A stretch of DNA of 64,000 bases from Corallococcus sp. AB038B (GCF_003668955.1 NZ_RAWO01000002.1:599605-663604), one strand, 5' to 3'; numbered from the stretch's first letter, positions 9,181 through 40,353 are shown. The notes: a model not told the origin generated them from the letters alone. Made by a program: numbers and translations.

Positions 9181-10071
9181 CTACGGGACGCAGGCCCCCA
9201 CGTCGCCGTTGTTGTTGATGGGCCGGCAGGTCACGCCGTTCGCGCACCCGGGTGAGCCCGCGGGCGTGCGGCACAGCGTCCGGCACGTGCCGCTGCCGTC
9301 GGCCATCACGCAGGTGCTCCCCCGTGAACACTGGTTGCTGAACTCGCACGAGGCGCCTTCCGCCAGCGCCCCCTGGCCCGCGCACACCGGGCCGTTGGCG
9401 GCGGGGTAGCAGCCCAGCGGGCTCTCGCAGTCCTGCGCGAACGCATCGCAGCTCGTGGACGCGGGGCCACACACCAGCGGCAGCTCTCGCGTGCCGTTCA
9501 GCCGCAGCACGGTGTTGCACTCGCCGGAGCCACAGTCGGACGGCGCGTGGCACAGCTTGCGGCAGAAGAACCCCGTGCCGCCGTCGTCCTGCGACGCGTC
9601 CTTGCAGTACAGGCCCGCAGCGCACGTGTCATACGTCTGGCCTGGAGGCGACTCGGCCAACGTGCACGGCGCGCCCTCTGTGGCGGTGCCCGCGGCGACG
9701 CACTGGCGCGCGGTGGTGCCTCCGTCCGTTCCCACGTAGGTGCACCGCTGTCCGGACGGACAGTCCTGGCGGACCACGTCGCACGCGGCCGCGAAGCACT
9801 GACTGCCCGTGCCGCCATCCGCCAGGTCCGTGTAGAGACAGCTCTGGCCCGCGGCGCAGCCCTCCTGCTTCGCCACGTTGCACGCGAAGTCGGAGCTTCC
9901 ACCGCCGCCGCCATCGCCAGCATCGACAGTCCCGGAATCTCCGCCATCGGTCCCGGAATCCAGGGACGTGCCCCCATCCGTTGGCGGGCGGACAGTTTCT
10001 CCGTCATCGCAGCCCGCCACCCACAGCCCCAACATCAGGGCTCCACCCAACAACACGAGACGTGCACTCAT
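9181..10071 (-). CDS. Cysteine-rich secreted lipoprotein (myxobacterial Cys-repeat type)
   Basis: Lipobox LWVAGC, a Gly/Asp-rich linker, then about 30 Cys in repeated C-x-G-x-C-type modules. Confidence 0.7.
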   Translation of the reverse strand: MSARLVLLGGALMLGLWVAGCDDGETVRPPTDGGTSLDSGTDGGDSGTVDAGDGGGGGSSDFACNVAKQEGCAAGQSCLYTDLADGGTGSQCFAAACDVVRQDCPSGQRCTYVGTDGGTTARQCVAAGTATEGAPCTLAESPPGQTYDTCAAGLYCKDASQDDGGTGFFCRKLCHAPSDCGSGECNTVLRLNGTRELPLVCGPASTSCDAFAQDCESPLGCYPAANGPVCAGQGALAEGASCEFSNQCSRGSTCVMADGSGTCRTLCRTPAGSPGCANGVTCRPINNNGDVGACVP

Positions 10072-10198
10072 CCGGAAACTCCTGGCTTCGAAGTAGCCTG
10101 GGACTTACACGAGCCATTCCGTAGTCCGTGGGCCCTTGAACCGGGCCTGGAAACCAGCCGACACTTCCGGTCCGAGAACCGAGGGGGTCAGGGTGCGC

Positions 10199-10555
10199 AT
10201 GAACACGAAGTTGGATGGGCCGGTGGAGCCAGACCCGTACATGAACCGCCGCGCCGAGGAGCGCGTGGCGGCGCGGTTCGAAGTGCGCTTCGAGCAGATG
10301 GAGGACGCGGCGCGTGCGCTGCGGGCCTACTCGCTGAATGTGTCCGCCGGCGGTCTGTGCCTGCGCACGCGCAAGTCCTACGACGTGGGCGCGCAGGTGC
10401 GGCTGGCCATGGTCATCGATGGGGAGGACTTCCACCTCACCGCTGTCGTCGCCTGGGTGCGCGACGAGGCGGAGGCCATCGGCGTGCGCTTCATCGACGT
10501 GAGCGAAGAGGACCACGAGCGCCTGCGCCGAGTCATCGCGAGCTTCAAGCGCTGA
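10199..10555 (+). CDS. PilZ-domain protein (c-di-GMP binding)
   Basis: RRAEERV…LSAGGLCL is a PilZ RxxxR…D/NxSxGG motif. The ATG at 10199 follows a gaggggg RBS; the ORF is open from 10136. Confidence 0.7.
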   Translation: MNTKLDGPVEPDPYMNRRAEERVAARFEVRFEQMEDAARALRAYSLNVSAGGLCLRTRKSYDVGAQVRLAMVIDGEDFHLTAVVAWVRDEAEAIGVRFIDVSEEDHERLRRVIASFKR

Positions 10556-26456: not shown

Positions 26457-26762
26457 TCAGTCGTGGGTGCCCACATGCAGGTCGCCGTGGCGCGTGCAGA
26501 CCCAGTGGAAGGCGCAGGAGCACGCCACCGCACGGGCGTGCGTGCAGCACCGGCCCCCGAAGTCCTCCGGGAGGACTTCGCGCTCGGGAGGTGGCGGGTC
26601 GGGCAGCTCCTTGGGGGCGCCCCGCCCGGAGTCCGCGGGCACGCTGCCGCAGCAGCCGCGCACGAGGCATTCGGGACACAGGGACAATTCGCAGTGCGCG
26701 CACCAGTCGAACACCTCTCCGGCGGTGCCACGGCGCTCACAACCTCCACAGGCGTCGAACAT
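26457..26762 (-). CDS. Small Cys-rich (putative zinc-binding) protein
   Basis: 101 aa containing CGGC…CAHC…CPEC…CCG and further Cys/His. High GC3. Possibly only a spurious ORF. Confidence 0.4.
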   Translation of the reverse strand: MFDACGGCERRGTAGEVFDWCAHCELSLCPECLVRGCCGSVPADSGRGAPKELPDPPPPEREVLPEDFGGRCCTHARAVACSCAFHWVCTRHGDLHVGTHD

Positions 26763-27004: not shown

Positions 27005-27535
27005 ATGCGCAGACACCGCCGCATCATCGGAGTGTTCGGCTCCGGGGCGCACTCTCACGAGGAGTGGGTCGTCCCCCTGGCGCGGTGGATTGCGGAGGCC
27101 GGGTTCGACCTGCTCACCGGCGCGGGCGGCGGCGTCATGAGCGCGGCGGCGGGGGCCTTCGTCCAGGTGGAGGGGCGGCGGGGGGCGGCCATCGGCATCA
27201 TCCCCGGCACCGTGGGCGCGGACGGCCGTTACCAGCCCCGGGCCGGCTACCCGAACACGGACATCGAAATCCCCATCTACACCCACCTGCCGCTCAGCGG
27301 GGAGCAGGGCACGGACCCCATGAGCCGCAACCACATCAACGTGCTGACGCCGCATGCCCTGGTCGCGCTGCCCGGGGGCGCCGGCACCGCGGCGGAGGCC
27401 GTCCTGGCCTTGCGCTATGGCAAGCCGCTCATCCTGCACGGGCCACCGGAGCTGTTCCGGCGCTTCCCGGCGGAGGCCGAGCGCACCACCTCCCTGGAGC
27501 GGGTGGCCGAGTTCCTCCTGGCCGCCACCCGCTAG
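27005..27535 (+). CDS. LOG/SLOG-superfamily Rossmann protein (TIGR00725-like)
   Basis: GVFGSG…TGAGGGVM…LPGGAGTAAEAV is the LOG-family PGGxGTxxE signature. Confidence 0.75.
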   Translation: MRRHRRIIGVFGSGAHSHEEWVVPLARWIAEAGFDLLTGAGGGVMSAAAGAFVQVEGRRGAAIGIIPGTVGADGRYQPRAGYPNTDIEIPIYTHLPLSGEQGTDPMSRNHINVLTPHALVALPGGAGTAAEAVLALRYGKPLILHGPPELFRRFPAEAERTTSLERVAEFLLAATR

Positions 27536-27669
27536 GCGGCAGGCGGGCTCAAGCAGGGCCTTGGTGGAGGGGAAGCCGCCCCACGGGGTGGCAAAAGATT
27601 CTAGGATGGACGTCGTGGGGAGGGGCGTGCGCCGCGGGTGCACGTCCGTCACCCATCACGTCCGCCATC

Positions 27670-28071
27670 ATGATCAACCCCGACTATCCGCTGGCCAGCT
27701 GGTTCCTCGCGGTCTCCACCTCGGTCTTCCTGGTCGTCTACGCATTGCCGTTGCTGTTCATCCCGCTGCGCTGGGCGCGTTGGTTCGGGTGGGAACTGCC
27801 CACGGGCAACAACGATTTGACGGTCTACTTCGCGCGTTGCCTGGGCGGCCTGGCGCTGTCCGTCATCATCGCGGTGGTGCAGTTCATCCCGGACCCCAAG
27901 AGCCACCTGGTCATCTTCGAGCTCATCGGCCTCATTGGTGGCCTGATGACGGCGGTGCACGTCTGGGGCGCGGTGCGCAAGCAGCAGCCCTGGCCGGAGA
28001 CGGCGGAAATCCCCCTCTACGGCGCCATGTGCCTGGGCGCCCTGTACCTGCGCTTCGCCAACCTGTCCTGA
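27670..28071 (+). CDS. Small 4-TM membrane protein
   Basis: 133 aa and four hydrophobic helices. Only the tail of track ORF 26941..28071 is coding; its upstream part overlaps the LOG gene in another frame. The cyclase gene follows after 18 nt. Confidence 0.55.
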   Translation: MINPDYPLASWFLAVSTSVFLVVYALPLLFIPLRWARWFGWELPTGNNDLTVYFARCLGGLALSVIIAVVQFIPDPKSHLVIFELIGLIGGLMTAVHVWGAVRKQQPWPETAEIPLYGAMCLGALYLRFANLS

Positions 28072-28089
28072 GCGGAAAGCCCCTTAAGG

Positions 28090-31000
28090 ATGCCCTCCAC
28101 GCAGCCCATCGATCCCGCTGTCGCGATGCTGGCGCCCTACATGCCGGCGGCCATCCTCGCGCGGCTTGGGAGCCAGGATGCGGACGCGCTGCCCCGGGCG
28201 GAGGGCGTGCGGGGCGCCATCCTGCTGCTGGACATCGCGGGCTTCACGCCCATCGTGGTGGGGCTGAGCGGCGCGGGCCCTCGCGGCATCGACGCGCTCC
28301 AGCGCCTGCTGACGAACTACTACACGGAGATGATCGACGTCGTCCGCGACCACGGCGGGGACATCTACCAGTTCGCCGGCGACTCCATCCTCGCGTGCTT
28401 CGAGTCCGCGCCCGAGGAAGCGGACGCGGACGTCGTGCAGCGAGCGGCGGTGTGCGCGCTGGGCGTGCAGCGCAGGCTGGCGCGCTTCGCCCGGCTGGAG
28501 CTGTTGGGCCAGCGCTTCGGCGTGTCGTCGCGCATCGGAATCGGCTTTGGTGAGGCCACCCGCATCGTGATGGGCACCACCGGCCTGTGGATGCACCCGG
28601 CGCTCGTGGGAGAGCCGCTGGCGCAGGCGGTGGGCGCGGAGAAGCAGGCCACGGTGTCGGAGGTCGTCTTGAGCCCGCGCGCCTGGGCGGCGCTGCCGGA
28701 GTCCGCGCGCAGGGGCGATCCACGCGAGGGTGGCAACCACCGGCTGGCGCTCGACGCGCCGGTGGAGTCGGTGAAGCGCCCGCTGCCCGCGCCCACGGGC
28801 GGGGCGGAGCTGGTGGGCCGGTGCGCGCTGCTCCTGCACCCGGTGCTCTTCACGAAGATCACCACCGCGCACCAGGAGTTCGCGGGCGACTTCCGCGACG
28901 TCACCTGCTTCTTCGTGCGCTTCACCCACGCGCAGGCGGACACGGATCCGGACGCGTTCACCCACGACCTCAACGCCTACTACGAATACGTCCAGCGCGA
29001 GTCCGCCCACCACGGCGGCGTGCTGCTGATGACGGACTTCACGGACAAGGGCAACGTGCTCTACGTCCTGTTCGGCGCGCCCACCGCCCAGCAGAACAAG
29101 GAGGTGCTGGCGTGCCGGCTGGCCTGCAAGCTGCTCAAGGCCCGGGAGCAGTTCCCCTTCCTGGATGAGCTGCAGATCGGCATCGCCACCGGCCACGCCT
29201 ACTGCGGCGACATGGGCTCGCCCACGCGCAAGGGCTACTCGGCGCTGGGCGAGGTCGTGAACATGGCCGCGCGCCTGATGACGCACGGCGGACGCCAGGA
29301 CGGCGTGCACCTGTGCGCCAACACCCAGTCGCGCTCGCAGCAGGGCGGCTTCGCCACGGAGTTCGTGGAGGACGCGAAGCTCAAGGGCGTGTCGCGCACG
29401 GTGCCGGTGTACCGGCTCTTGGGGGAGACGCGCCGCAGCCTCTTCATCAAGGGCCGGGGCGACATCATCGGCCGCAGCCGCGAGCTCAACGTGCTGCACG
29501 CGTCGCTCAACGCGGCCTTCGCGGGCCAGGGCCGCGTGAGCGTGGTGTCCGGCGAGGCGGGCATCGGCAAGTCGCGGCTGGGCGCGCGCGTGTTGGAGGA
29601 CGCGGAGGAGGGCGGCGCCCGGGCGCTGTACGGCGTCTGCTACTCCTACGAGGCCTTCACCCCCTTCTTCCCCTGGAAGGAGGTGCTGCTCCAGGCCTTC
29701 GGTCTTCACGACTCGGACGACACCGAGGCGCAGCTCACGCGCCTGCGGCAGGGGCTGGACGGCCTGGAGGACGTGGGGCCGGAGTGGATTCCCGTGGTCG
29801 CGGGCATCCTCGGCATGTCGCTGGAGGAGACGTCCGCCACGGCGGGGATGGACGCGCGGCGCAAGCAGCAGAAGGTGTTCCAGATCGTCTTCCAGCTCCT
29901 GGAGAAGCTCAGCCGCGCGCAGCCGCTGCTGCTCTACTTCGAGGACCTGCACTGGGCGGACTACATCTCGTTGGACCTGCTCCAGTACCTGGCGGTGCGC
30001 GTGGGCTCGCACCGCATCATGGTGCTGGCGACGATGCGCCCGGGCGACCAGCTCCGCGGTCTGCGCGAGCTGCCGGAGTTCGTCCCGGTGGACCTGACGA
30101 GCCTGGACGAAGAGGACACGCGGGCGCTGCTGCGCGTGCACCTGCGCCTGTCGCCGCCGGACGTCGCGCTGGAGGACCGGCTGCTCGCGAAGGTGCAGGG
30201 CAACCCGTTCTTCATCGAATCCATCGTGGAGGGCCTGGCGGAGCAGGGCTACCTGGGGCCGGTGGAGCCCGGCTCGCCGCGCATGGAGGTGAAGCGCGGC
30301 CTCCAGGACCTGCTGCTGCCGGACTCCATCCAGGACGTGGTGCTGTCGCGCATCGACCTGCTCAGCGAGACGGAGAAGCTGGTGGTGAAGGTGGCGTCCG
30401 TCATCGGGCGCATCTTCACGCTGGACGCGGTGGTGGCGCTGGTGCCCACGCTGGGGAGCAAGGTCCTGCGCGAGGCCATGGACACGCTCCAGCGCCTGGG
30501 CCTCATCCTGCTGGAGACGGAGGAGCCGTACACCTGCCTCTTCAAGCACATCGTCATCCGCGACGTGGCCTACAACACGCTGCTGGTGTCCGCGCGTGAG
30601 GACCTGCACCGCCGGCTCGCGCGCTACCTGGAGGCCCGCGCCAACGACAACCTCGCGGGCTCCGCGGGTCTGCTCGCGTTCCACTTCCTCGCGGGCAACG
30701 TGGAGGACAAGGGCCTGGCGTACACGCTGATGGCGGCCCGCAGCGCGCGGGCGCAGTACGCGAACGACGACGCGCTCTACCACTACAACCGGGGCCTGGA
30801 GCTGCTCGGCACCGTCGTCCCGGTGGACCCGGAGGTGACGCTCCTCCAGACGCGCCGGGTGATGCAGGAGCTGGCGGAGACGTTGCTCCAGGCGGGCCAC
30901 TACGCCAACGCCATCCTGATGTTCGAGCAGTGCCTGGTGGACGAGGAGGAGCCCCCGCTCCAGGCGGAGCTGCACCTGGGCCTGGGCCGCGCGCACCAGG

Positions 31001-32391
31001 AGAAGGGCGAGTCCGCGCTCGCCACGCAGCACCTGGAGAAGTCGCTGGTGTTGAGGGGCCGCAGCCTCCCGGGGAGCCTGGCCGCGCTGGGCCTGCGCAC
31101 GCTGGCGAACCTGGTGCTCCGGGGGCTCGCGACGCTGCTGCCCTTCATCCTGCGTCCGCTGCCGGCGGCGAGGCTGGGCAACTACCTGCAGCAGCTGTCC
31201 ACGCTCAACTCGCTCATCCGCATCTACTACTTCGCGGACATCACCAAGCTCACCTGGGCGACGCTGGTGTCCACCAACATGGCGGAGCGTTCGCGCAACG
31301 ACTACGCCATGAGCATGGCGCGCGGTTACTACGGCACGCTCCTGTTCGGCGCGGGGCTGCTCAAGCGCTCGCGCTACCACTGCGAGAAGGCGCTGGAGTA
31401 CGCGCGCCGCTCCAAGGATCCGGTGGCGGAGGGGCTCGCGCTCAGCCGCCTGGGCATCCAGGCCTTCTTCGCCAACGAGCTGGAGCGTGCGCGGGAGTTC
31501 CAGGAGGAGGCCGTCTCCACGCTGCGCCAGGTGGGCGAGCGCTGGGAGCGTCAGACATCGCTGATGATGCAGGCCACGGGCGAGTTCCTCCACTCGCGCT
31601 TCCGCCCGGCGGTGGCGCTCTACGAGCAGATGGGGACCATTGGCGTGGAGCTCAACGCGCTGATGCACCAGGGCTGGGCGCACTCGTGGGCGCCCATGTG
31701 CCGCTACCTCATGGGCGAAGGCGACGTGGGCGAGCTGTGCGCGGAGCTGGAGCAGGGCCTGCGCATCAGCGAGGAGGTGGCGGACCTGGCCAACCAGTGC
31801 GCCAGCTTGAACCACCTGGCCAACGTCACGGTGCGCGAGCACCAGGTGGAGGAGGCCGCGCTCGTCGCGGTGCGCTGCTTCGAGAGCATCTGGAGCTACC
31901 AGGTGCTGGTGCCCTTCCTCCAGGTGGGGTTGGTGGACGCGGCGGAGGCGGCCCTCTTCGCGCTGGAGGAGGGCGCCACGGTGGTGCCGCGCAAGAAGCT
32001 GCTGAAGGTCGTGCGGCTGTCCTGCCTCAAGGCGCGCGTCATCGCGCGGCTCTATCCGTACCTGAAGGGCCCGGCGCTGCGCGTGACGGCGCGCTCACTG
32101 GCCCTGCGCAAGGGCCCCAAGGCCGCGGAGCCCGTGTTCCTGGAGGCCATCGCCGTCCTGGAGAAGAGCCCCAACCGCTGGGAGACGGGCGTGGCCTACT
32201 TCGACGCGGCGGTGGCGCTGCCGAACCGGCGCGAGGAGTTCCTCGCCCGAGCGCGCGCCATCTTCACGGAGGTGGAGGCCCGCGCGGAGCTGCGCCGCAT
32301 GGACCGCTTCCAGGCCACCCTCCAGGCCCCGCCGGTGGAGGCGCTTGTTGCTCCCCAGGCCTCAAAGCCCCGTGACGCTCGCGTGATGTGA
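28090..32391 (+). CDS. Tandem class-III nucleotidyl-cyclase domains + STAND/AAA NTPase + TPR/SLR array (1433 aa)
   Basis: Cyclase 1: LLDIAGFT…FAGDSILACF. Cyclase 2: CFFVRFT…IGIATGHAYCGDMGSP…GEVVNMAARLM. Walker A: VSGEAGIGKSRL. Helical repeats follow to the C-terminus. No HTH domain. Confidence 0.85.
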   Translation: MPSTQPIDPAVAMLAPYMPAAILARLGSQDADALPRAEGVRGAILLLDIAGFTPIVVGLSGAGPRGIDALQRLLTNYYTEMIDVVRDHGGDIYQFAGDSILACFESAPEEADADVVQRAAVCALGVQRRLARFARLELLGQRFGVSSRIGIGFGEATRIVMGTTGLWMHPALVGEPLAQAVGAEKQATVSEVVLSPRAWAALPESARRGDPREGGNHRLALDAPVESVKRPLPAPTGGAELVGRCALLLHPVLFTKITTAHQEFAGDFRDVTCFFVRFTHAQADTDPDAFTHDLNAYYEYVQRESAHHGGVLLMTDFTDKGNVLYVLFGAPTAQQNKEVLACRLACKLLKAREQFPFLDELQIGIATGHAYCGDMGSPTRKGYSALGEVVNMAARLMTHGGRQDGVHLCANTQSRSQQGGFATEFVEDAKLKGVSRTVPVYRLLGETRRSLFIKGRGDIIGRSRELNVLHASLNAAFAGQGRVSVVSGEAGIGKSRLGARVLEDAEEGGARALYGVCYSYEAFTPFFPWKEVLLQAFGLHDSDDTEAQLTRLRQGLDGLEDVGPEWIPVVAGILGMSLEETSATAGMDARRKQQKVFQIVFQLLEKLSRAQPLLLYFEDLHWADYISLDLLQYLAVRVGSHRIMVLATMRPGDQLRGLRELPEFVPVDLTSLDEEDTRALLRVHLRLSPPDVALEDRLLAKVQGNPFFIESIVEGLAEQGYLGPVEPGSPRMEVKRGLQDLLLPDSIQDVVLSRIDLLSETEKLVVKVASVIGRIFTLDAVVALVPTLGSKVLREAMDTLQRLGLILLETEEPYTCLFKHIVIRDVAYNTLLVSAREDLHRRLARYLEARANDNLAGSAGLLAFHFLAGNVEDKGLAYTLMAARSARAQYANDDALYHYNRGLELLGTVVPVDPEVTLLQTRRVMQELAETLLQAGHYANAILMFEQCLVDEEEPPLQAELHLGLGRAHQEKGESALATQHLEKSLVLRGRSLPGSLAALGLRTLANLVLRGLATLLPFILRPLPAARLGNYLQQLSTLNSLIRIYYFADITKLTWATLVSTNMAERSRNDYAMSMARGYYGTLLFGAGLLKRSRYHCEKALEYARRSKDPVAEGLALSRLGIQAFFANELERAREFQEEAVSTLRQVGERWERQTSLMMQATGEFLHSRFRPAVALYEQMGTIGVELNALMHQGWAHSWAPMCRYLMGEGDVGELCAELEQGLRISEEVADLANQCASLNHLANVTVREHQVEEAALVAVRCFESIWSYQVLVPFLQVGLVDAAEAALFALEEGATVVPRKKLLKVVRLSCLKARVIARLYPYLKGPALRVTARSLALRKGPKAAEPVFLEAIAVLEKSPNRWETGVAYFDAAVALPNRREEFLARARAIFTEVEARAELRRMDRFQATLQAPPVEALVAPQASKPRDARVM

Positions 32392-32469: not shown

Positions 32470-33300
32470 ATGATCACCGCGCCGCTCCGCTTCCAGCTCA
32501 GTCCCGTCATCGTCATCTACATGCTCGTGGTCCACGGGCTGGCCGCGCTGGCGTTCTTCCTGCCCTGGCCGCCGTACGCGCTGCCGGTGGCGCTGGCCGT
32601 GTACGTGTCCATTGGCCTGGGCACGACGGTGGGGCTGCACCGGCTTCTATGCCACCGCGCCTTCGCATGCCCCCGCTGGGTGGAGTACGCGCTGGTGTCG
32701 GTGGCCATGCTCACCGCGCAGGGCAGTCCGCTCCTGTGGGCCGCGAACCACCGGCTGCACCACGCGAAGGCGGACGCGGACGGGGACGTGCACTCGCCGC
32801 TGCGCGGCTTCTGGTACGCGCACATGGGGTGGATCCTCAACGAGTCCTCCACGGAAGAGGACGGCTGGAGCACCTGGTGCCGCGACATGGCGGACGACCG
32901 CTACTACCACTGGCTCTTGCGCTACCGCATCGCGCCGCAGGTGTTGGGGGTGCTCTTCGTGGGGCTGACGTTCGGCTGGCGCACGGTGCCCGCGTACTTC
33001 TTCCTGCCCGTGGTGTGCTGGATGCAGAGCACCTACGCGGTGAACTCCGTGTGCCACGCGGCGTTCGGCAAGCGCGTCCACGACACGCGCGACCACAGCC
33101 GCAACGTGTGGTGGGTGAGCGTGCTCGCGCTGGGCGAGGGCTGGCACAACAACCACCACGCCTTCCCCGCGTCCGCGCGGCACGGTTGGGTGTGGTGGCA
33201 GTGGGACCCGGGTTGGCTCTTCATCCGAGCGCTCCAGGTCCTGGGGCTGGCGTGGGACGTGCGCCTGCCGTCCCGGATCAGGTCAGGACCTGCGGCGTGA
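32470..33300 (+). CDS. Acyl-CoA (Δ9-type) fatty-acid desaturase
   Basis: His boxes HRLLCH, HRLHHAKAD and HNNHHAFP, with four TM helices. Stearoyl-CoA desaturase family. Confidence 0.85.
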   Translation: MITAPLRFQLSPVIVIYMLVVHGLAALAFFLPWPPYALPVALAVYVSIGLGTTVGLHRLLCHRAFACPRWVEYALVSVAMLTAQGSPLLWAANHRLHHAKADADGDVHSPLRGFWYAHMGWILNESSTEEDGWSTWCRDMADDRYYHWLLRYRIAPQVLGVLFVGLTFGWRTVPAYFFLPVVCWMQSTYAVNSVCHAAFGKRVHDTRDHSRNVWWVSVLALGEGWHNNHHAFPASARHGWVWWQWDPGWLFIRALQVLGLAWDVRLPSRIRSGPAA

Positions 33301-34695
33301 GGCCCAGCGCGGGCATCCGCTCCGCGTCCCACGCCTCGATGGCATCCAGCCCCGCGATGTAGCGGCGCTCCTTGTTCTTCACCGGGTTGCGGATGCTGAC
33401 GATCTCCGGCCCGGAGAAGAGGATGGTCTGCTTGTAGCGGGGCAGGTCGCTCATCATCAGCTTGGACGCGTAGTGCCGCGCGATGTTGGGCAGGCTGCCC
33501 AGCGTGTGGCACAGCCGCTGGAAGTGCTCCACCACCTCCGACGCGTGCATGTTCTTGGGCCGGTGGCACAGCGTGTAGCCGTCGTAGTCGCGGCTGGTGG
33601 TGCCGGGCAAGAGCCGGTCCTCGGCCTTCAGCTCGCGGAAGAAGGGCGTCTCCGGATACGGGCACACGATGCCCAGGAACGTGACGGAGAAGTACTTCAG
33701 GTCCGCCAGGTAGTCCGGCAGCCGGTGCAGATACTCGTTGGTGTCTCCGTCCGAACCGACGATGAGCCCGAACGACAGCAGGATGCCGGCGGAGAAGACG
33801 CGGCGGATGACGGCGTCCACCTCCGACAGCTTGTTCTGCCCCTTGTTCATCGCCTTGAGCGACTCCGGGTTGAGCGACTCCAGGCCGGTGTAGACGTAGC
33901 GGCAGCCCGCCTTCGCCATTAGCTTCACCAGCGAGTCGTCCTTCAGCACGTTGAAGGTGAGCGCGCAGCCCCACGTCTTCTTCAACGGGATGAGCGCCTC
34001 ACACAGCGCGCGCAGGTACTTGGGCGAGCCGCCCAGGTTGTTGTCGAGGAAGACGAACGCGTCCCCCATCAGCCCCAGGAAGTTCGGGTTCCAGCGCATG
34101 CGCGTCTGGATTTCGTCGATGACCTCCGGAATGGGCCGGAAGCGGTAGCGCTCGTGGCCGGTGAGCACGCAGAAGTTGCACGTGAAGGGGCAGCCGCGCG
34201 ATGCCTCGATGCCCGGCAGGCGCACCTTGTTGTTCGTGAAGTCGATGAGCTCGTAGCGGTACGGCCGGATGGCGGCGGCGCCCTGCGACGGCAGGCTGTA
34301 GCGGGGCTTGAGCTCGCCCTTCTCGAAGTCCGCGATGAGCGCGGGCACGTTGGACTCCGGCTCCCCGGTGATGACCGCGTCGAAGTACTTCGCCGCGTCG
34401 TCGGGGAAGTGGCCCGCGTGCCGGCCTCCCGCCACCGTCGTCATGCCGCGCTGACGGAAGAGGGTGGAGAGGACCTTGGTGTGCTCGTAGTACGAGTGCA
34501 GGTACGAGAAGAAGACGAGGTCCCAGTGCCGGTCCAACGGCAGCTCCGCCTCCTTCTCGTTGAAGATCTCCACCTCCGCGTGCTCCGGGCACAGGCCCGC
34601 GATGAGCTCCGGCACGGAGGACTGCATGATGGAGGGTTCCTTGATTCGCAGCCGGGTCGGATGGGTGTACGTGGCGATGATGGCGATGCGCATGC
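33278..34695 (-). CDS. B12-binding radical SAM enzyme
   Basis: N-terminal cobalamin-binding Rossmann region (MRIAIIATY…), then CPFTCNFC (CxxxCxxC). Its 3' end overlaps the convergent desaturase by 23 nt. The ORF is open to 34738. Confidence 0.8.
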
Positions 34696-34914
34696 GTGCG
34701 GGCCCGGCGGCGGCGCGGACGAAACGAGGCGCGCTCACGTTCGTGTTTTCACCTGCCGGACCGCGTCCCCCTTCGTCGTCGGAGGATCACCCGGAGTCCG
34801 GGCGGTGGCAAAGGATCTCCATCGCACGCGCCGCACTCCGCGTGTTTCCGGTGGCAGCGGACGACCCAGGAGGACCTATCTCGTGTGGGGGCCGTGCTGA
34901 TAGATCTTTGAAAC

Positions 34915-36702
34915 ATGGATACTTCTCCTTCGCCAGCCGCCCCGGGTTGGCCGTTTAAGCGTTACTTCTGGATTTCCATCGTGTTCGCGGTGGCGCTGGG
35001 CGCGCTCGCGTTGCGCTCGGGGTTCATGCCGGATGACTTCATCTGGCTGGGCGTCTGGGACAACATTCCGCCGCCCGCGCCGCTGGGGAACACGCCCCTG
35101 GACGTGTACCGCACGGCCACGGGCATCCCGGAGCACACGCTGCACCTGGCGCAGGTGGGCGTCTTTCCGTGGTGGGTGGAGCCCACCGTGCGCGTCGCGT
35201 TCTTCCGGCCCCTGGGCAGCCTGCTCTACGGACTGGACCACGTGCTCTACAACCGCGTGGCCGTGGCCTACCAGTTCCACTCGTTGCTCTGGTACGTGGG
35301 CCTGGTGGTGCTGGCGGGCGTGCTGCTCAAGCGCGTGCTGCCCACGGCGGTGGCGGGCGTGGCGATGTTCCTCTTCGCCATCTGGGGCTCGCACGCGGCG
35401 GTGCTGGGCTGGCTGTCCTACCGCAGCGTGGTGATGTCGCTGCTCTTCGGCATCCTTGGCATCTTCCTCCACGTGAAGTGGCGGGAGGAGAAGCGCACGA
35501 GCACCCTGGTGGGCGCGCTGGTGTCCTTCGCGCTGGCGCTCCTGTGCGGCGAGACGATGGTCATCCTCAGCCCGTACGTGCTGGCCTACGAGGCCTTCTC
35601 CGGCCCGGGGCAGGCGAAGGACAAGCTCAAGGGGCTCATCCCCTTCGGCGTGCTGATGGCCCTCTACTTCGCGGCGTACCGGGCCATGGGCTACGGCGCG
35701 GGCGGCTCGGACATGTACCTGGACGCTCTGGGCACGCCCGTGGCGTGGTTCCAGGCGATGCTCGGGCGCGTCCCGGCCGCCATCGCGGGCCTGACGCTGA
35801 ACGCGCCCCCGGACTTCATCTTCGACCAGTCCCTGGTGCCCCTCTTCACCATCCTGGGCGCGGTGGGTTTCACGCTGTTCGCGCTGCTGGTGTGGGGCGT
35901 GTGGCCCCGGCTGGAGTCCGCGGAGCGCCGCACGGTGGGCTGGATGCTGACGGGCGCGTTCGTGGCCACGTGGATGTCCAACTCCGCCTTCGCAGGCTCG
36001 CGCACGCTCATCGTGCCCAGCCTGGGCATGGCGGTGGGCCTGGCCGTGGTGCTGCGCCACGCGTGGAAGGGGCGGGCGAAGACGTTCCGCGCGGGCGCGG
36101 TGCTGGCCGGCGCTGCGGTGATGGCCCTCATCCACGTCGTGGGCTCGCCCTACCTCTGGTGGCAGACCATGGAGCAGTACTCCCAGGCGGACGCGCTCAT
36201 GGGCCGCGTGCAGGCGCGCTACGAGGAGGCGTTCGATCAGACGAAGCTCTCCAATCAGCGCGTGGTGGTGCTCAACGCCCCCAACGGCATCATCGGCATC
36301 TACGGCTCCGTGCGCTGGTGGTCCTCGGGCAATCCGCTTCCGAAGGCCTGGTGGGTGCTGTCCTATTCGCTCTACGAGCAGAAGGTGACGCGCACCGGCC
36401 CGAACTCAGTGGAGCTGGAGCTCACCAAGGGCGGCCACTTCCTGGACTCCGTGGAGGAGCGCATCCACCGCGCCGCGCGCCACCCGGTGCACAAGGGCGA
36501 CGAGTTCGACATGAAGGGCATGATGGTGAAGATTGAGGAGGCGGACGCGGAAGGACCCACGCGCATCTCCTACACCTTCGATGTGCCGCTCGAGGACCCG
36601 TCGCTGAAGCTGGTCCAGTGGCAGAACAAGAAGGTGGTGCCCTGGGTGCCGCCGGCCGTGGGTGGACCGTCGTCGTCCCTCAACGTCCGCGTCGTCCAGT
36701 AG
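34915..36702 (+). CDS. Polytopic membrane protein, GT-C (ArnT/PMT-like) putative glycosyltransferase fold, with a C-terminal soluble domain
   Basis: 595 aa: about 12 N-terminal TM helices, then a ~170-aa hydrophilic C-terminus. The family call is tentative. Confidence 0.55.
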   Translation: MDTSPSPAAPGWPFKRYFWISIVFAVALGALALRSGFMPDDFIWLGVWDNIPPPAPLGNTPLDVYRTATGIPEHTLHLAQVGVFPWWVEPTVRVAFFRPLGSLLYGLDHVLYNRVAVAYQFHSLLWYVGLVVLAGVLLKRVLPTAVAGVAMFLFAIWGSHAAVLGWLSYRSVVMSLLFGILGIFLHVKWREEKRTSTLVGALVSFALALLCGETMVILSPYVLAYEAFSGPGQAKDKLKGLIPFGVLMALYFAAYRAMGYGAGGSDMYLDALGTPVAWFQAMLGRVPAAIAGLTLNAPPDFIFDQSLVPLFTILGAVGFTLFALLVWGVWPRLESAERRTVGWMLTGAFVATWMSNSAFAGSRTLIVPSLGMAVGLAVVLRHAWKGRAKTFRAGAVLAGAAVMALIHVVGSPYLWWQTMEQYSQADALMGRVQARYEEAFDQTKLSNQRVVVLNAPNGIIGIYGSVRWWSSGNPLPKAWWVLSYSLYEQKVTRTGPNSVELELTKGGHFLDSVEERIHRAARHPVHKGDEFDMKGMMVKIEEADAEGPTRISYTFDVPLEDPSLKLVQWQNKKVVPWVPPAVGGPSSSLNVRVVQ

Positions 36703-39311: not shown

Positions 39312-39468
39312 TTCTTGGAAATGTGGAAAGACAAGTACAACGTGACTACGTGGTTTACCGCCAGTGTGGAACGTACAGGCGGACAAGGGCGGGCTGTTCG
39401 GGGTGGGGAATGCAGCCTACAGTTGGAAAAGCGGCATTTTTTCCCCGGCCCACTTGTCTCGGAAGCCC

Positions 39469-40353
39469 ATGACCCTGTTCCGGCACCCTGAAGATCGCAT
39501 CCCGGTCCTGATGTTCCTTGGCGTGTTCGCGCTCGACGTGACGGTGTTCCTCACGGCCCAGAGCTGGTGGATCCCGGTGCTGTGGTTCGGGCTGGGCATC
39601 ATCCCCAAGGGATGGATCTGCTCGTGGAACCACCACCACCAGCACCTGTCCTTCTTCAAGCACGCGCTGCCCAACCGCCTGTTGGAGATCGTCTTCGGCT
39701 TCCAGACGGGCGTGACGTCGCAGGCGTGGTTCCTCCACCACGTGCTGGGCCACCACAAGAACTACCTGGACCAGACGCAGGACGAGTCGCGCTGGAAGCG
39801 GGATGACGGCTCGACGATGGGCGAGGTGGAGTACTCGCTGAGCACGGCGCTGACCGCGTACTCGCGCGCGTTCCACGTGGGGAAGAAGCATCACCCCAAG
39901 GCGCTGCGCGTGTTCGTGTGGATGGCCGCGCTCCAGGTGGTGCTGCTGGCGGGCCTGTTCTGGGTGAACCCCTACAACGCGCTCTTCGTGTTCCTGTTGC
40001 CCATGATGGCGTCGCTCTACGTGACGACCTGGGCCACGTACTTCCACCACGTGGGCCTGGAGACGGCCAACCACTCGGAGGCCTCGTACAACATCCTCCA
40101 CAAGGGCTACAACCTGATGACGGGCAACCTGGGCTACCACACCGCGCATCACACGCGGCACGGTCTGCACTGGTCCAAGCTGCCGGAGCTGCACGCGCAG
40201 CTGGCGCAGGAGATCCCCGCGAACCTGTACCGCCAGCCGGGCATCCCGTTCGTCTGGAGCGGCTCTGAAGCGAAGCTCGTGCTGAGCGAGCACGAGGTTG
40301 CCGCGCTCTCCGGCCGGCCCGTGGAAGGCAGTGGGGAGAAGCTGGCCGCCTAG
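39469..40353 (+). CDS. Membrane fatty-acid-desaturase/hydroxylase-family di-iron protein
   Basis: His boxes WNHHHQH, HHVLGHH and HTAHH. TM helices. ATG at 39469 after a ggaag RBS; the ORF is open from 39364. Confidence 0.75.
   Translation: MTLFRHPEDRIPVLMFLGVFALDVTVFLTAQSWWIPVLWFGLGIIPKGWICSWNHHHQHLSFFKHALPNRLLEIVFGFQTGVTSQAWFLHHVLGHHKNYLDQTQDESRWKRDDGSTMGEVEYSLSTALTAYSRAFHVGKKHHPKALRVFVWMAALQVVLLAGLFWVNPYNALFVFLLPMMASLYVTTWATYFHHVGLETANHSEASYNILHKGYNLMTGNLGYHTAHHTRHGLHWSKLPELHAQLAQEIPANLYRQPGIPFVWSGSEAKLVLSEHEVAALSGRPVEGSGEKLAA

What the first reader, a model, noticed from the sequence alone, without database searches (positions are those of the whole stretch)
27005..32391. LOG/SLOG-like protein, small 4-TM protein and tandem-cyclase–STAND–TPR giant in one operon: a possible nucleotide-signal sensor/effector module
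A TIGR00725/LOG-superfamily Rossmann protein (PGGAGTAAE motif) is followed at short intergenic distances by a 133-aa four-helix membrane protein and, 18 nt later, a 1433-aa protein. That protein has two class-III nucleotidyl-cyclase homology domains (an intramolecular C1/C2-like pair), a STAND-type P-loop NTPase and a long TPR/SLR array. SLOG/LOG domains bind nucleotides or nucleotide-derived second messengers and have been proposed as sensors in nucleotide-centred conflict and signalling systems. STAND NTPases are ligand-gated switches. Juxtaposing a candidate signal generator (cyclase), a candidate ligand binder (LOG-like) and a small membrane protein resembles cyclic-nucleotide-based defence or signalling operons. 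The nucleotide produced is unknown: it could be cAMP, cGMP or a pyrimidine cNMP.
Basis: partly seen in the sequence, partly recalled or inferred. Interest (0 to 1): 0.55.

Follow-up and report, generated by a model that had tools for sequence, protein, structure and literature searches.

The report
Bacterial soluble-adenylyl-cyclase homolog and its neighbours
The 1433-aa protein is a myxobacterial member of a large, already annotated family related to mammalian soluble adenylyl cyclase; it is stably paired only with the small membrane protein, and the LOG-like gene next door looks like a separate, lineage-specific neighbour, not part of a defence or signalling module.

Summary
Its first 460 residues match human soluble adenylyl cyclase (sAC/ADCY10) C1–C2 colinearly (phmmer E=1e-22; AF2 model TM 0.82–0.85). 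Adding the P-loop STAND and TPR regions gives the layout described for full-length sAC. The family is large: more than 1100 clusters at 50% identity, mostly 1300–1450 aa.

The proposed three-gene module does not hold up.
- The trio is syntenic only in Myxococcaceae-type genomes.
- Five loci keep the membrane gene plus the cyclase without the SLOG gene.
- SLOG orthologs elsewhere sit in unrelated contexts.
- Nineteen distant full-length relatives of the cyclase have neither neighbour.
- A conserved −10-like box in the SLOG–membrane-gene spacer suggests a separate transcript.
- Defence-system models give only generic cyclase-domain matches.

The durable unit is the membrane protein plus the cyclase (47 of 48 loci). 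The catalytic Asp, Asn and Arg residues are conserved. The adenine-binding Lys is Met, and sAC's bicarbonate-binding Lys and Arg are absent, so product and regulator are unknown. Novelty is low to moderate.

The parts
27005..27535 (+). g22: SLOG cluster-4 / MoCo-carrier-like Rossmann protein (176 aa). It is a neighbour and probably its own transcription unit.
   Evidence: PF18306 at 85.9 bits, below the LOG and TIGR00725 cut-offs. The best PDB match is Chlamydomonas MoCo carrier protein 2iz5 at E=3e-8. Motifs GAGGGVM (39) and PGGAGTAAE (123) are present.
27575..27592 (+). GC-rich hairpin GCCGCCC-CACG-GGGTGGC, 40 nt after the g22 stop codon
   Evidence: Part of the RNA fold of 27530-27669, MFE -76.8 kcal/mol, z=-4.5. 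Four Corallococcus draft assemblies have a contig end at or within about 15 nt of this hairpin.
27602..27607 (+). -10-like box TAGGAT, 68 nt upstream of the g23 ATG; likely promoter of g23-g24
   Evidence: A TAnnnT hexamer lies 67-78 nt upstream of the ATG in 30 of 31 orthologous spacers (TAGGAT, TAGAAT, TACAAT, TATGCT or TATGGT). The chance expectation is about 1.6% per locus.
27604..27666 (+). Long leader hairpin ending 3 nt before the g23 start codon
   Evidence: RNAalifold found no consensus across 22 orthologs and there is no Rfam match.
27670..28071 (+). g23: four-helix membrane protein of an unnamed family (133 aa); conserved partner of the cyclase
   Evidence: AF2 pLDDT 96 with four long helices. 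No PDB fold match, best E=1.3. No Pfam family. Invariant residues are P27, P32, W35, W41, Y53, R56, C57, G59, H97, G100, P107, E110 and E113. It lies upstream of the cyclase in 47 of 48 loci of the clade at 50% identity or more.
28090..32391 (+). g24: sAC-like (ADCY10-like) tandem cyclase - STAND - TPR protein (1433 aa)
28189..28695 (+). C1-like cyclase domain (aa 34-202). It keeps both metal-binding Asp (D48, D98) and lacks the Asn/Arg pair.
   Evidence: Aligned to human sAC 33-197. D48 and D98 are invariant in the family alignments.
28873..29436 (+). C2-like cyclase domain (aa 262-449). It lacks the metal Asp residues and keeps Asn391 and Arg395. Met is at the sAC K334 position and Ser at the T405 position.
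   Evidence: Aligned to human sAC 283-468. Pfam Guanylate_cyc covers 270-440.
29467..30024 (+). STAND P-loop NTPase (AAA_16, aa 460-645) with Walker A at 488-495 and Walker B at 613-619
   Evidence: PF13191 at 81 bits against a cut-off of 32.6; motifs.
30850..31860 (+). TPR-type repeat region (aa ~921-1257)
   Evidence: TPR_12 and TPR_2/1/7/8 hits, plus NCBIfam TPR models.

Best explanation
The locus holds two units, not one module.

Unit 1 is a stand-alone SLOG cluster-4 (MoCo-carrier-like) small-molecule-binding protein on its own transcript.

Unit 2 is a conserved gene pair: a four-helix membrane protein followed 18 nt later by a full-length bacterial homolog of soluble adenylyl cyclase.

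In the giant, the C1-like domain supplies the two metal-binding aspartates. The C2-like domain supplies the transition-state Asn and Arg. Together they form one active site at an intramolecular pseudo-heterodimer interface, as in sAC (shown by alignment and model).

The downstream STAND NTPase and TPR array most likely act as a ligand- and ATP-gated switch that holds the cyclase autoinhibited until a signal is sensed. This step is inferred from STAND biology and from the reported lower activity of full-length sAC.

The small membrane protein most likely recruits the otherwise soluble enzyme to the membrane or relays a membrane-derived cue to it. This is inferred from conserved adjacency only.

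The output is a cyclic nucleotide used in ordinary myxobacterial signal transduction, probably cAMP. The base-contacting Lys is Met, so the product is not certain.
For: sAC homology:
- phmmer of residues 1-460 hits human ADCY10 best (E=1e-22), with two colinear domains. Single-domain bacterial cyclases follow at 1e-11 or weaker.
- The AF2 model (pLDDT 86, pTM 0.87) matches 24 human sAC structures at TM 0.80-0.85 and E about 1e-33 to 1e-29, well above AC9 (about 0.7).

Complementary active-site halves: D48 and D98 are in C1; N391 and R395 are in C2. All four are invariant in the family alignments.

STAND: AAA_16 with intact Walker A and B motifs, plus TPRs. Full-length sAC is described as C1-C2 plus a predicted STAND domain with a P-loop, and is several-fold to about ten-fold less active than the truncated form (PMC12802110; PMC11006738).

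Large family: 1139 representatives at E<=1e-30. Most of the top 150 are 1300-1450 aa, with the tandem domains at the N-terminus.

Pairing with g23:
- g23 is present in 47 of 48 loci of the clade at 50% identity or more.
- These include L039 (Polyangia), whose flanks differ on both sides, and L085 (Archangium), whose upstream flank differs (the contig ends inside the cyclase gene).
- The g23 stop to the start of the cyclase match is 17-77 nt in the 35 genome loci of the clade and 173 nt in L039.

Separate transcript: a conserved -10-like box is in the g22-g23 spacer.

Ordinary context: neighbours are a TonB receptor, a Ser/Thr kinase, Pit/PhoU, desaturases, a radical-SAM enzyme, peptidases and E1 dehydrogenase. 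They are syntenic across Corallococcus.
Against: - No activity, product, ligand or interaction has been measured.
- The adenine-binding Lys of sAC (K334) is Met here and M, H or Q across the close subfamily. sAC's bicarbonate residues K95 and R176 are Gln and Val (residue roles recalled from memory). The protein could therefore be a poor cyclase, use another NTP, or only bind ATP.
- One metagenomic contig (L091) has SLOG followed by the cyclase with g23 deleted.
- In four Archangium loci the same g23 ortholog lies convergent to a kinase-STAND-TPR gene, so the two cannot be co-transcribed there.
- Distant g23 homologs have varied neighbours and no STAND protein.
- Homology of the STAND-TPR region to that of ADCY10 itself could not be tested. 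No full-length sAC sequence or structure was available, and afdb50 was unavailable.
Confidence: 0.55

Rival explanations
1. First reader's model. The three genes form one nucleotide-signalling or defence module: the cyclase makes a cNMP, the SLOG protein senses or processes it, and the membrane protein is the effector.
For: - The trio is adjacent and co-oriented in 38 loci across Corallococcus, Myxococcus, Pyxidicoccus, Hyalangium and Citreicoccus.
- SLOG proteins are predicted to act as nucleotide sensors or processors in conflict systems (PMC6459960).
- The non-canonical base-specifying residues leave the product open.
- The giant gives weak PycC hits.
Against: - SLOG is absent from 5 loci that keep g23 and g24.
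- SLOG orthologs at 52-70% identity sit next to p450/peptidase, photolyase/DUF898, or assorted enzymes.
- Nineteen distant sAC-like loci lack both neighbours.
- A conserved internal -10-like box exists.
- Flanking genes g21 and g26 are conserved over the same set of genomes, so trio synteny is no stronger than background synteny.
- There is no PADLOC hit for SLOG or the membrane protein, no cNMP-binding domain anywhere in the unit, and no mobile-element or defence-island context.
Confidence: 0.12
2. Pure inherited synteny. All three genes are functionally unrelated, and even the g23-g24 pairing is positional inertia within one clade.
For: - g23 homologs outside the clade have unrelated neighbours: DUF3187, APH, GpsA, metallo-beta-lactamase, ADH and p450.
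- Most sAC-like family members lack g23.
- L091 lacks g23.
- The Archangium arrangement is convergent.
Against: - The pair survives with changed flanks in L039 (both sides) and L085 (upstream side).
- The short spacing is conserved.
- In Archangium, g23 stays next to a STAND-TPR protein that is 44% identical to g24 residues 459-1417 even after the cyclase head was exchanged for a kinase.
- In three Streptosporangiaceae loci, g23 homologs lie next to a SARP-STAND protein.
Confidence: 0.25
3. The tandem cyclase-homology region is a pseudo-cyclase that binds ATP as a sensor instead of making a cyclic nucleotide. This would resemble the P. aeruginosa class III AC-like ATP-binding protein.
For: - The Lys that contacts adenine in sAC is Met, His or Gln throughout the close subfamily.
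- PDB 6yii, titled 'class III adenylyl cyclase-like ATP-binding protein', shows that tandem-domain bacterial relatives of this kind exist (TM 0.57). Details of that protein are from memory.
Against: - Both metal Asp residues and the Asn/Arg pair are invariant across the aligned sets sampled, down to 24-36% identity. Conservation of this kind is unusual for a dead enzyme.
- 6yii is not detectable by sequence, whereas active human sAC scores E=1e-22.
Confidence: 0.15

Closest known systems
Mammalian soluble adenylyl cyclase, full-length isoform (sAC / ADCY10)
   Same: - Tandem C1-C2 catalytic core in the same order, which is also the best sequence and structure match.
- Metal Asp residues in C1 and Asn/Arg in C2.
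- Ser at the class IIIb Thr position.
- A P-loop STAND region after the catalytic core (architecture per PMC12802110). The repeat-rich C-terminus of ADCY10 is recalled from memory.
   Different: - Only about 19-20% identity.
- sAC's bicarbonate-binding K95 and R176 are Gln and Val, and the adenine-binding K334 is Met (residue roles from memory of the 2014 sAC structures).
- Homology of the C-terminal 970 residues to ADCY10 was not tested.
- It is a bacterial protein paired with a small membrane protein.
Bacterial cyclase/kinase-STAND-TPR signalling proteins (e.g. TIGR03903 TOMM kinase/cyclase fusion; mycobacterial Rv0386-type cyclase-ATPase proteins)
   Same: - Cyclase domain plus AAA_16 plus TPR.
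- TIGR03903 aligns to residues 258-904 at E=1.7e-65.
- Rv0386 also has non-canonical substrate residues (from memory).
   Different: - The TIGR03903 score is 221 bits against a cut-off of 706, so it is not a member.
- The N-terminal domain here is a second cyclase domain, not a kinase.
- There is no LuxR or other DNA-binding output.
P. aeruginosa class III adenylyl cyclase-like ATP-binding protein (PDB 6yii)
   Same: Bacterial tandem cyclase-homology fold spanning about 470 residues.
   Different: - Much weaker structural match (TM 0.57 against 0.83 for sAC).
- No detectable sequence similarity.
MoCo carrier protein / SLOG cluster 4 (PF18306)
   Same: - g22 is a clear PF18306 member.
- Its best solved relative is Chlamydomonas MCP at E=3e-8 over residues 4-153.
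- NCBI names the orthologs 'molybdenum cofactor carrier protein'.
   Different: - Ligand unknown.
- It keeps the LOG-type PGGxGTxxE motif.
- It is not a scored member of LOG (PF03641), TIGR00730 or TIGR00725.
Pycsar (pyrimidine cyclase defence system)
   Same: A class III cyclase-homology domain next to a small membrane protein; weak PycC model hits at E about 1e-10.
   Different: - No cNMP-binding effector domain.
- The cyclase is a 1433-aa STAND protein.
- Core-genome context, and no effector model hit.

Membership tests
sAC-like (ADCY10-type) class III cyclase | Two different cyclase-homology domains (C1 then C2) in one chain, forming a pseudo-heterodimer | tested here: met
   Colinear match of 34-202 to sAC C1 and 262-449 to sAC C2. 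The model matches sAC at TM 0.82-0.85 over the whole core.
sAC-like (ADCY10-type) class III cyclase | Catalytic residues split between the domains: two metal Asp in C1, and Asn plus Arg in C2 | tested here: met
   D48 and D98 in C1; N391 and R395 in C2. All are invariant in alignments A3 and A4.
sAC-like (ADCY10-type) class III cyclase | Class IIIb substrate pair: Lys plus Thr (Thr replacing Asp) | tested here: not met
   The Thr position is Ser, a conservative change. The Lys position is Met, and M, H or Q in the close subfamily. The class IIIb definition is from PMC2613629.
sAC-like (ADCY10-type) class III cyclase | Bicarbonate site residues (human K95 and R176) | tested here: not met
   Gln94 and Val at the aligned positions. 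Neither Lys nor Arg occurs at these positions in any of the 19 bacterial sequences aligned. Residue roles are recalled from memory.
sAC-like (ADCY10-type) class III cyclase | C-terminal STAND P-loop module as in full-length sAC | tested here: met
   AAA_16 at 81 bits, with Walker A and B motifs. The sAC architecture is per PMC12802110. Direct homology to the ADCY10 C-terminus was not testable.
sAC-like (ADCY10-type) class III cyclase | Cyclase activity and its product | not testable with these tools
   Needs an enzyme assay.
LOG (cytokinin riboside 5'-monophosphate phosphoribohydrolase, PF03641 / TIGR00730) | Score at or above the curated family cut-off | tested here: not met
   PF03641 scores 19.1 against 27; TIGR00730 scores 24.3 against 96.
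LOG (cytokinin riboside 5'-monophosphate phosphoribohydrolase, PF03641 / TIGR00730) | PGGxGTxxE motif | tested here: met
   PGGAGTAAE at residues 123-131. The non-enzymatic MoCo carrier protein has a related GMGPGTAAE.
SLOG cluster 4 (PF18306) | Score above the gathering threshold over most of the model | tested here: met
   85.9 bits against 26.3; model positions 2-132 of 151.
STAND NTPase (MalT-clade, AAA_16) | P-loop NTPase domain with Walker A and B motifs, followed by a repeat sensor | tested here: met
Pycsar / cyclic-nucleotide defence operon | Effector protein carrying a cNMP-binding domain next to the cyclase | tested here: not met
   g23 and g22 have no cNMP-binding domain and no PADLOC hit.
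Pycsar / cyclic-nucleotide defence operon | Patchy, island-like distribution among related genomes | tested here: not met
   In the complete Corallococcus chromosomes L001 and L003 the locus and its flanks are syntenic over the 20-kb stretches fetched. The core gene order is kept across Myxococcaceae genera.
   38 loci have all three genes and 5 have g23+g24 only. One (L091) has g22+g24 only. Three SLOG orthologs looked up outside the trio stand alone. Nineteen distant cyclase loci have neither neighbour.

The most novel reading that the evidence does not exclude
The unnamed four-helix membrane protein family (g23) may be a dedicated membrane subunit of MalT-clade STAND-TPR signalling proteins, whatever their output domain. 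Three output types are seen next to it: a tandem cyclase in Myxococcaceae and Polyangia, a Ser/Thr kinase in Archangium, and a SARP DNA-binding head in Streptosporangiaceae. Under this reading it gives these otherwise soluble switches a membrane-derived input. In addition, the sAC-like subfamily with Gln and Met/His/Gln in place of the two Lys residues might make a product other than cAMP.
Probability: 0.15. Interest if true: 0.55.

Novelty: new member of a known kind. Interest (0 to 1): 0.3.

Why it matters
Full-length soluble adenylyl cyclase remains poorly understood. PMC12802110 describes its C-terminal regulatory domains as predicted only, and found that none of the nucleotides tested regulated the full-length form differently from the truncated one. 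Bacterial homologs with the same layout are abundant and could be tractable models for how a STAND-TPR module gates a C1-C2 cyclase.

This locus adds two modest leads. The first is a conserved small membrane partner. The second is a subfamily lacking both the bicarbonate-site and the adenine-contacting lysines.

For the scan itself, the main value is negative. The appealing SLOG-cyclase-membrane 'defence-like' reading is not supported by comparative genomics.

Tried and rejected
- Exact look-up of the giant in public assemblies found nothing.
- Word-indexed homolog search with residues 1-460 saturated and gave only 7 hits. The exhaustive representative search was used instead.
- Single-linkage clustering of neighbour ORFs in GC-rich loci was contaminated by antisense and shadow ORFs. 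It was replaced by targeted tblastn/HMM searches and a GC3-aware gene caller.
- I looked for a universal partner of g23 in distant phyla. None was found; the neighbours are heterogeneous.
- I looked for a shared neighbour of distant sAC-like genes. None was found.
- The g22-g23 spacer was tested as a known RNA. Rfam gave no hit at gathering score or at E<=1.
- The spacer was tested as a repeat that might explain the contig breaks. There is no second copy in the window.
- The promoter/terminator consensus scan found no sigma-70 match and no convincing terminator between the genes.
- PADLOC gave nothing beyond generic PycC cyclase-domain hits.
- The g23 fold search against the PDB gave no match. 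DUF4345, the name UniRef gives some homologs, is not supported by Pfam: 1 of 20 members at E=0.047.
- The afdb50 fold library was not available, so I could not test whether the STAND-TPR part resembles ADCY10.
- Burroughs et al. 2015, which defined the SLOG families, was not held. The 6yii paper was not found.
It was repeated with A4.
Full report
**What is there**

The window is about 70% GC, and its closest relatives are Corallococcus genomes. Three + strand ORFs lie at the stated coordinates:
- g22, 27005-27535, 176 aa
- g23, 27670-28071, 133 aa
- g24, 28090-32391, 1433 aa

The gaps between them are 134 nt and 18 nt. Third-position GC of 0.93-0.97, with the expected first- and second-position pattern, supports each frame and strand. 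The flanks are:
- a divergent Cys-rich 85-aa gene, g21
- a fatty-acid desaturase, g25, on the + strand 78 nt after g24
- a convergent B12-type radical-SAM gene, g26

**The three proteins**

g22 is a clear member of Pfam SLOG cluster 4 (PF18306, 85.9 bits). It falls below the curated cut-offs of LOG PF03641, TIGR00730 and TIGR00725. Its best solved relative is the Chlamydomonas molybdenum-cofactor carrier protein (2iz5, E=3e-8), and NCBI names its orthologs that way. It keeps the GAGGGVM and PGGAGTAAE motifs. It is neither a conventional LOG enzyme nor demonstrably a sensor. Its ligand is unknown.

g23 belongs to no Pfam family. Its AF2 model is very confident (pLDDT 96) and shows four long helices. 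It has no structural match in the PDB. Thirteen positions are invariant across 20 diverse homologs, including R56-C57, H97, E110 and E113.

g24 carries Pfam Guanylate_cyc at 270-440, AAA_16 at 460-645 and several TPR hits. Walker A and Walker B motifs are intact.

**The missed identity of the giant**

phmmer of residues 1-460 against all PDB sequences gives human soluble adenylyl cyclase (ADCY10) as the best hit, at E=1e-22. Two colinear segments match: 34-202 to sAC C1 (33-197) and 262-449 to sAC C2 (283-468). Single-domain bacterial cyclases follow at 1e-11 or weaker.

An AF2 model of 1-460 (pLDDT 86, pTM 0.87) superposes on 24 human sAC structures at TM 0.80-0.85 and E about 1e-33 to 1e-29. 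It matches AC9 at only about 0.7.

Full-length sAC is described as C1-C2 followed by an autoinhibitory segment and a predicted STAND domain with a P-loop. It is several-fold less active than the truncated form (PMC12802110; PMC11006738). g24 therefore has the layout of full-length sAC.

I could not test whether its STAND-TPR part is specifically homologous to that of ADCY10. No such structure or sequence was available, and afdb50 was unavailable.

**Active-site anatomy**

I mapped residues through the sAC alignment onto 17 orthologs and 2 distant relatives, and onto further family members.

- C1 keeps both metal-binding Asp residues (D48, D98) and has lost the Asn/Arg pair.
- C2 has lost the Asp residues and keeps N391 and R395.
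- These four residues are invariant in the family alignments.

This is the complementary arrangement that gives one active site and one degenerate site.

| sAC residue | Role | Here |
|---|---|---|
| K334 | contacts adenine | Met; M, H or Q in the close subfamily; Lys in one distant relative |
| T405 | class IIIb Thr position | Ser; S or T in relatives |
| K95 | binds bicarbonate | Gln (invariant YQFAGDS motif) |
| R176 | binds bicarbonate | Val; V, I or L in most orthologs |

The roles of the sAC residues are recalled from memory of the 2014 sAC structures. The definition of class IIIb as 'Thr replacing the substrate-binding Asp' is from PMC2613629.

Conserved catalytic residues argue for an active enzyme. 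The base-contact and regulatory-site changes mean that product and regulator cannot be assumed to be cAMP and bicarbonate.

**How common it is**

An exhaustive HMMER search of 1.84 billion cluster representatives with residues 1-460 gave 28,505 hits at E<=1e-3 and 1,139 at E<=1e-30. Most of the best 150 are 1300-1450 aa long and match the whole tandem region colinearly at their N-terminus.

Names seen for these clusters include 'class 3 adenylate cyclase/TPR repeat protein' and 'AAA family ATPase'. Sources include Spirochaetaceae MAGs and one protist transcriptome. This is an abundant, already annotated architecture.

**Test of the three-gene module**

The genome scan with g23 homologs returned 80 loci. 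tblastn with the window's genes (tallied) gave these counts:

| Class of genome locus | Loci |
|---|---|
| g23 immediately followed by a g24 ortholog | 36 |
| ...also with g22 upstream | 30 |
| ...contig ends inside the g22-g23 spacer (uninformative) | 5 |
| ...no g22 within 10 kb (L039, a Polyangia MAG; RsfS lies upstream) | 1 |

Further evidence came from other sources.
- An Archangium MAG contig (L085) has g23 (62%) and g24 (58%), with an unrelated minus-strand gene upstream.
- A metagenome scan with the tandem-cyclase alignment returned 36 loci.
- Eleven of these are 50% or more identical. Eight of them have g22.
- Three of them (L096, L102, L115) have g23 and g24 without g22.
- One of them (L091) has g22 and g24, with g23 reduced to a remnant of about 130 nt.
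- The 19 full-length relatives at 24-36% identity have neither g22 nor g23 within 8 kb, and share no common neighbour.

Looking from the SLOG side gives the same picture. The Archangium violaceum ortholog (70% identity) lies between a p450 and a peptidase S8 gene. A 52% ortholog follows a photolyase and precedes DUF898. A 53% ortholog sits among assorted enzymes.

Within Myxococcaceae, the flanking genes g21 and g26 are conserved over the same genomes as the trio. Trio synteny there is therefore no stronger than background synteny.

**Transcription units**

In 30 of 31 orthologous spacers, a TAnnnT hexamer lies 67-78 nt upstream of the g23 ATG. The variants are TAGGAT, TAGAAT, TACAAT, TATGCT and TATGGT. 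Such hexamers occur at 0.0005 per nt in this window, so about 1.6% is expected by chance per locus.

In the window, a GC-rich hairpin follows the g22 stop. A long hairpin fills the leader up to 3 nt before the ATG (z=-4.5).

I infer that g23-g24 has its own promoter and that g22 is transcribed separately. This is not shown experimentally. The generic sigma-70 and terminator scan found nothing decisive.

**The durable pair**

g23 accompanies the cyclase in 47 of 48 informative loci of the clade. This includes L039, where the flanks differ on both sides, and L085, where the upstream flank differs.

In four Archangium loci the same g23 ortholog group lies convergent to a Ser/Thr-kinase-AAA_16-TPR protein. 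That protein's STAND-TPR part is 44% identical to g24 residues 459-1417. Unrelated paralogs nearby are only 26-28% identical. This looks like an exchange of the output head on a related chassis beside the same small gene.

In three Streptosporangiaceae loci, g23 homologs are 55% identical to the myxobacterial ones. They lie between a TPR_12 protein and a SARP-AAA_16 protein.

These observations hint at a link between g23 and STAND-TPR proteins. However, the convergent orientation, the L091 deletion and the many g23 homologs without any STAND neighbour keep this at the level of a lead.

**Defence reading**

PADLOC gives only generic PycC cyclase-domain matches for g24 (best E=1.2e-10) and nothing for g22 or g23. 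No cNMP-binding domain is present.

The neighbourhood consists of a TonB receptor, a Ser/Thr kinase, a Pit transporter with PhoU-like protein, two desaturases, a radical-SAM enzyme, peptidases, an SLT transglycosylase, a SpoIIE phosphatase and an E1 dehydrogenase. In two complete Corallococcus chromosomes it is syntenic with the window across the 20-kb stretches fetched. This is not a defence island.

**Verdict**

The best reading (confidence about 0.55) has two parts:
- a bacterial full-length sAC-type cyclase gated by its STAND-TPR module and paired with a small membrane protein of unknown role
- an independently transcribed MoCo-carrier-like SLOG gene that is a clade-specific neighbour

Novelty: a new member of a known kind. 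Interest: about 0.3.

Noticed in passing
window 27536-27669 (g22-g23 spacer): A conserved -10-like box lies 67-78 nt upstream of the g23 start in 30 of 31 orthologous loci. The leader is strongly structured (MFE -76.8 kcal/mol, z=-4.5), with a hairpin ending 3 nt before the ATG. It has no Rfam match, and RNAalifold found no consensus on a poor alignment. It could be a translational control element.
   Followed up: partly
L004, L005, L008, L009, L033 (positions 1-104): Five draft assemblies have a contig end 39-104 nt upstream of g23, inside the same spacer. In the four Corallococcus assemblies the end lies at or within about 15 nt of the GC-rich CCCCACGGGG hairpin. The spacer has no second copy in the window, so a coverage drop at the GC-rich stem seems more likely than a repeat.
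   Followed up: partly
L017, L020, L022 (10404-14594, -), L024: In Archangium, the g23 ortholog is followed on the opposite strand by a 1374-1416-aa Ser/Thr kinase-AAA_16-TPR protein. Its STAND-TPR part is 44% identical to g24 residues 459-1417. This looks like a kinase-for-cyclase head swap on a related chassis, still near g25 and g26 homologs.
   Followed up: partly
L029, L040, L041, L042, L062 (around 10001-10400): Streptosporangiaceae actinobacteria carry g23 homologs 53-56% identical to the myxobacterial ones. That is unusually close for two phyla and suggests horizontal transfer. In L029, L040, L041 and L042, a gene of 307-339 aa sits directly upstream; it is a TPR_12 protein where scanned (L029, L040), and an MFS transporter lies further upstream in L029. 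A SARP-AAA_16 protein (1071-1129 aa) lies downstream in three of the loci.
   Followed up: partly
L091 2889-3184: One Myxococcus-like metagenomic contig keeps SLOG, the -10 box, the leader and the ATG ATC start of g23. Most of g23 has been lost, so the cyclase gene follows about 130 nt later. This is either a natural g23 deletion or an assembly error.
   Followed up: no
window 33278-34738 (-): A B12-binding-type radical-SAM protein (486 aa) lies convergent to the operon and overlaps the g25 stop by 23 nt. It is 79-87% identical across Myxococcaceae genera, better conserved than its neighbours. It scores far below the cut-offs of all named families (BchE, HpnJ, lipid-biosynthesis rSAM), so its function is unknown.
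   Followed up: no
window 32470-33300 (+) and 39454-40353 (+): Two fatty-acid-desaturase-family genes lie within 7 kb of each other. The first follows g24 by 78 nt. It is present in Corallococcus, Citreicoccus and Archangium and absent from the Myxococcus, Pyxidicoccus and Hyalangium loci.
   Followed up: no
window 26457-26714 (-): g21 is a small Cys/His-rich protein (85-101 aa, CxxC...CxxC...CC motifs). It is divergent from g22 and detected beside it in most genome loci and three metagenome loci checked. It has no family assignment.
   Followed up: no
P0216 / L085 3423-5048: A public Archangium MAG record names the truncated g24 ortholog 'sodium/proton-translocating pyrophosphatase, partial', and an H_PPase Pfam hit is on record for it. 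This looks like a misannotation of a cyclase-AAA_16 protein.
   Followed up: no
window 34981-36702 (+): g27 (573 aa) has no Pfam or NCBIfam hit. It is much more variable among Corallococcus genomes (62-94% identity) than its neighbours (about 95%), and it is missing from one locus (L009).
   Followed up: no
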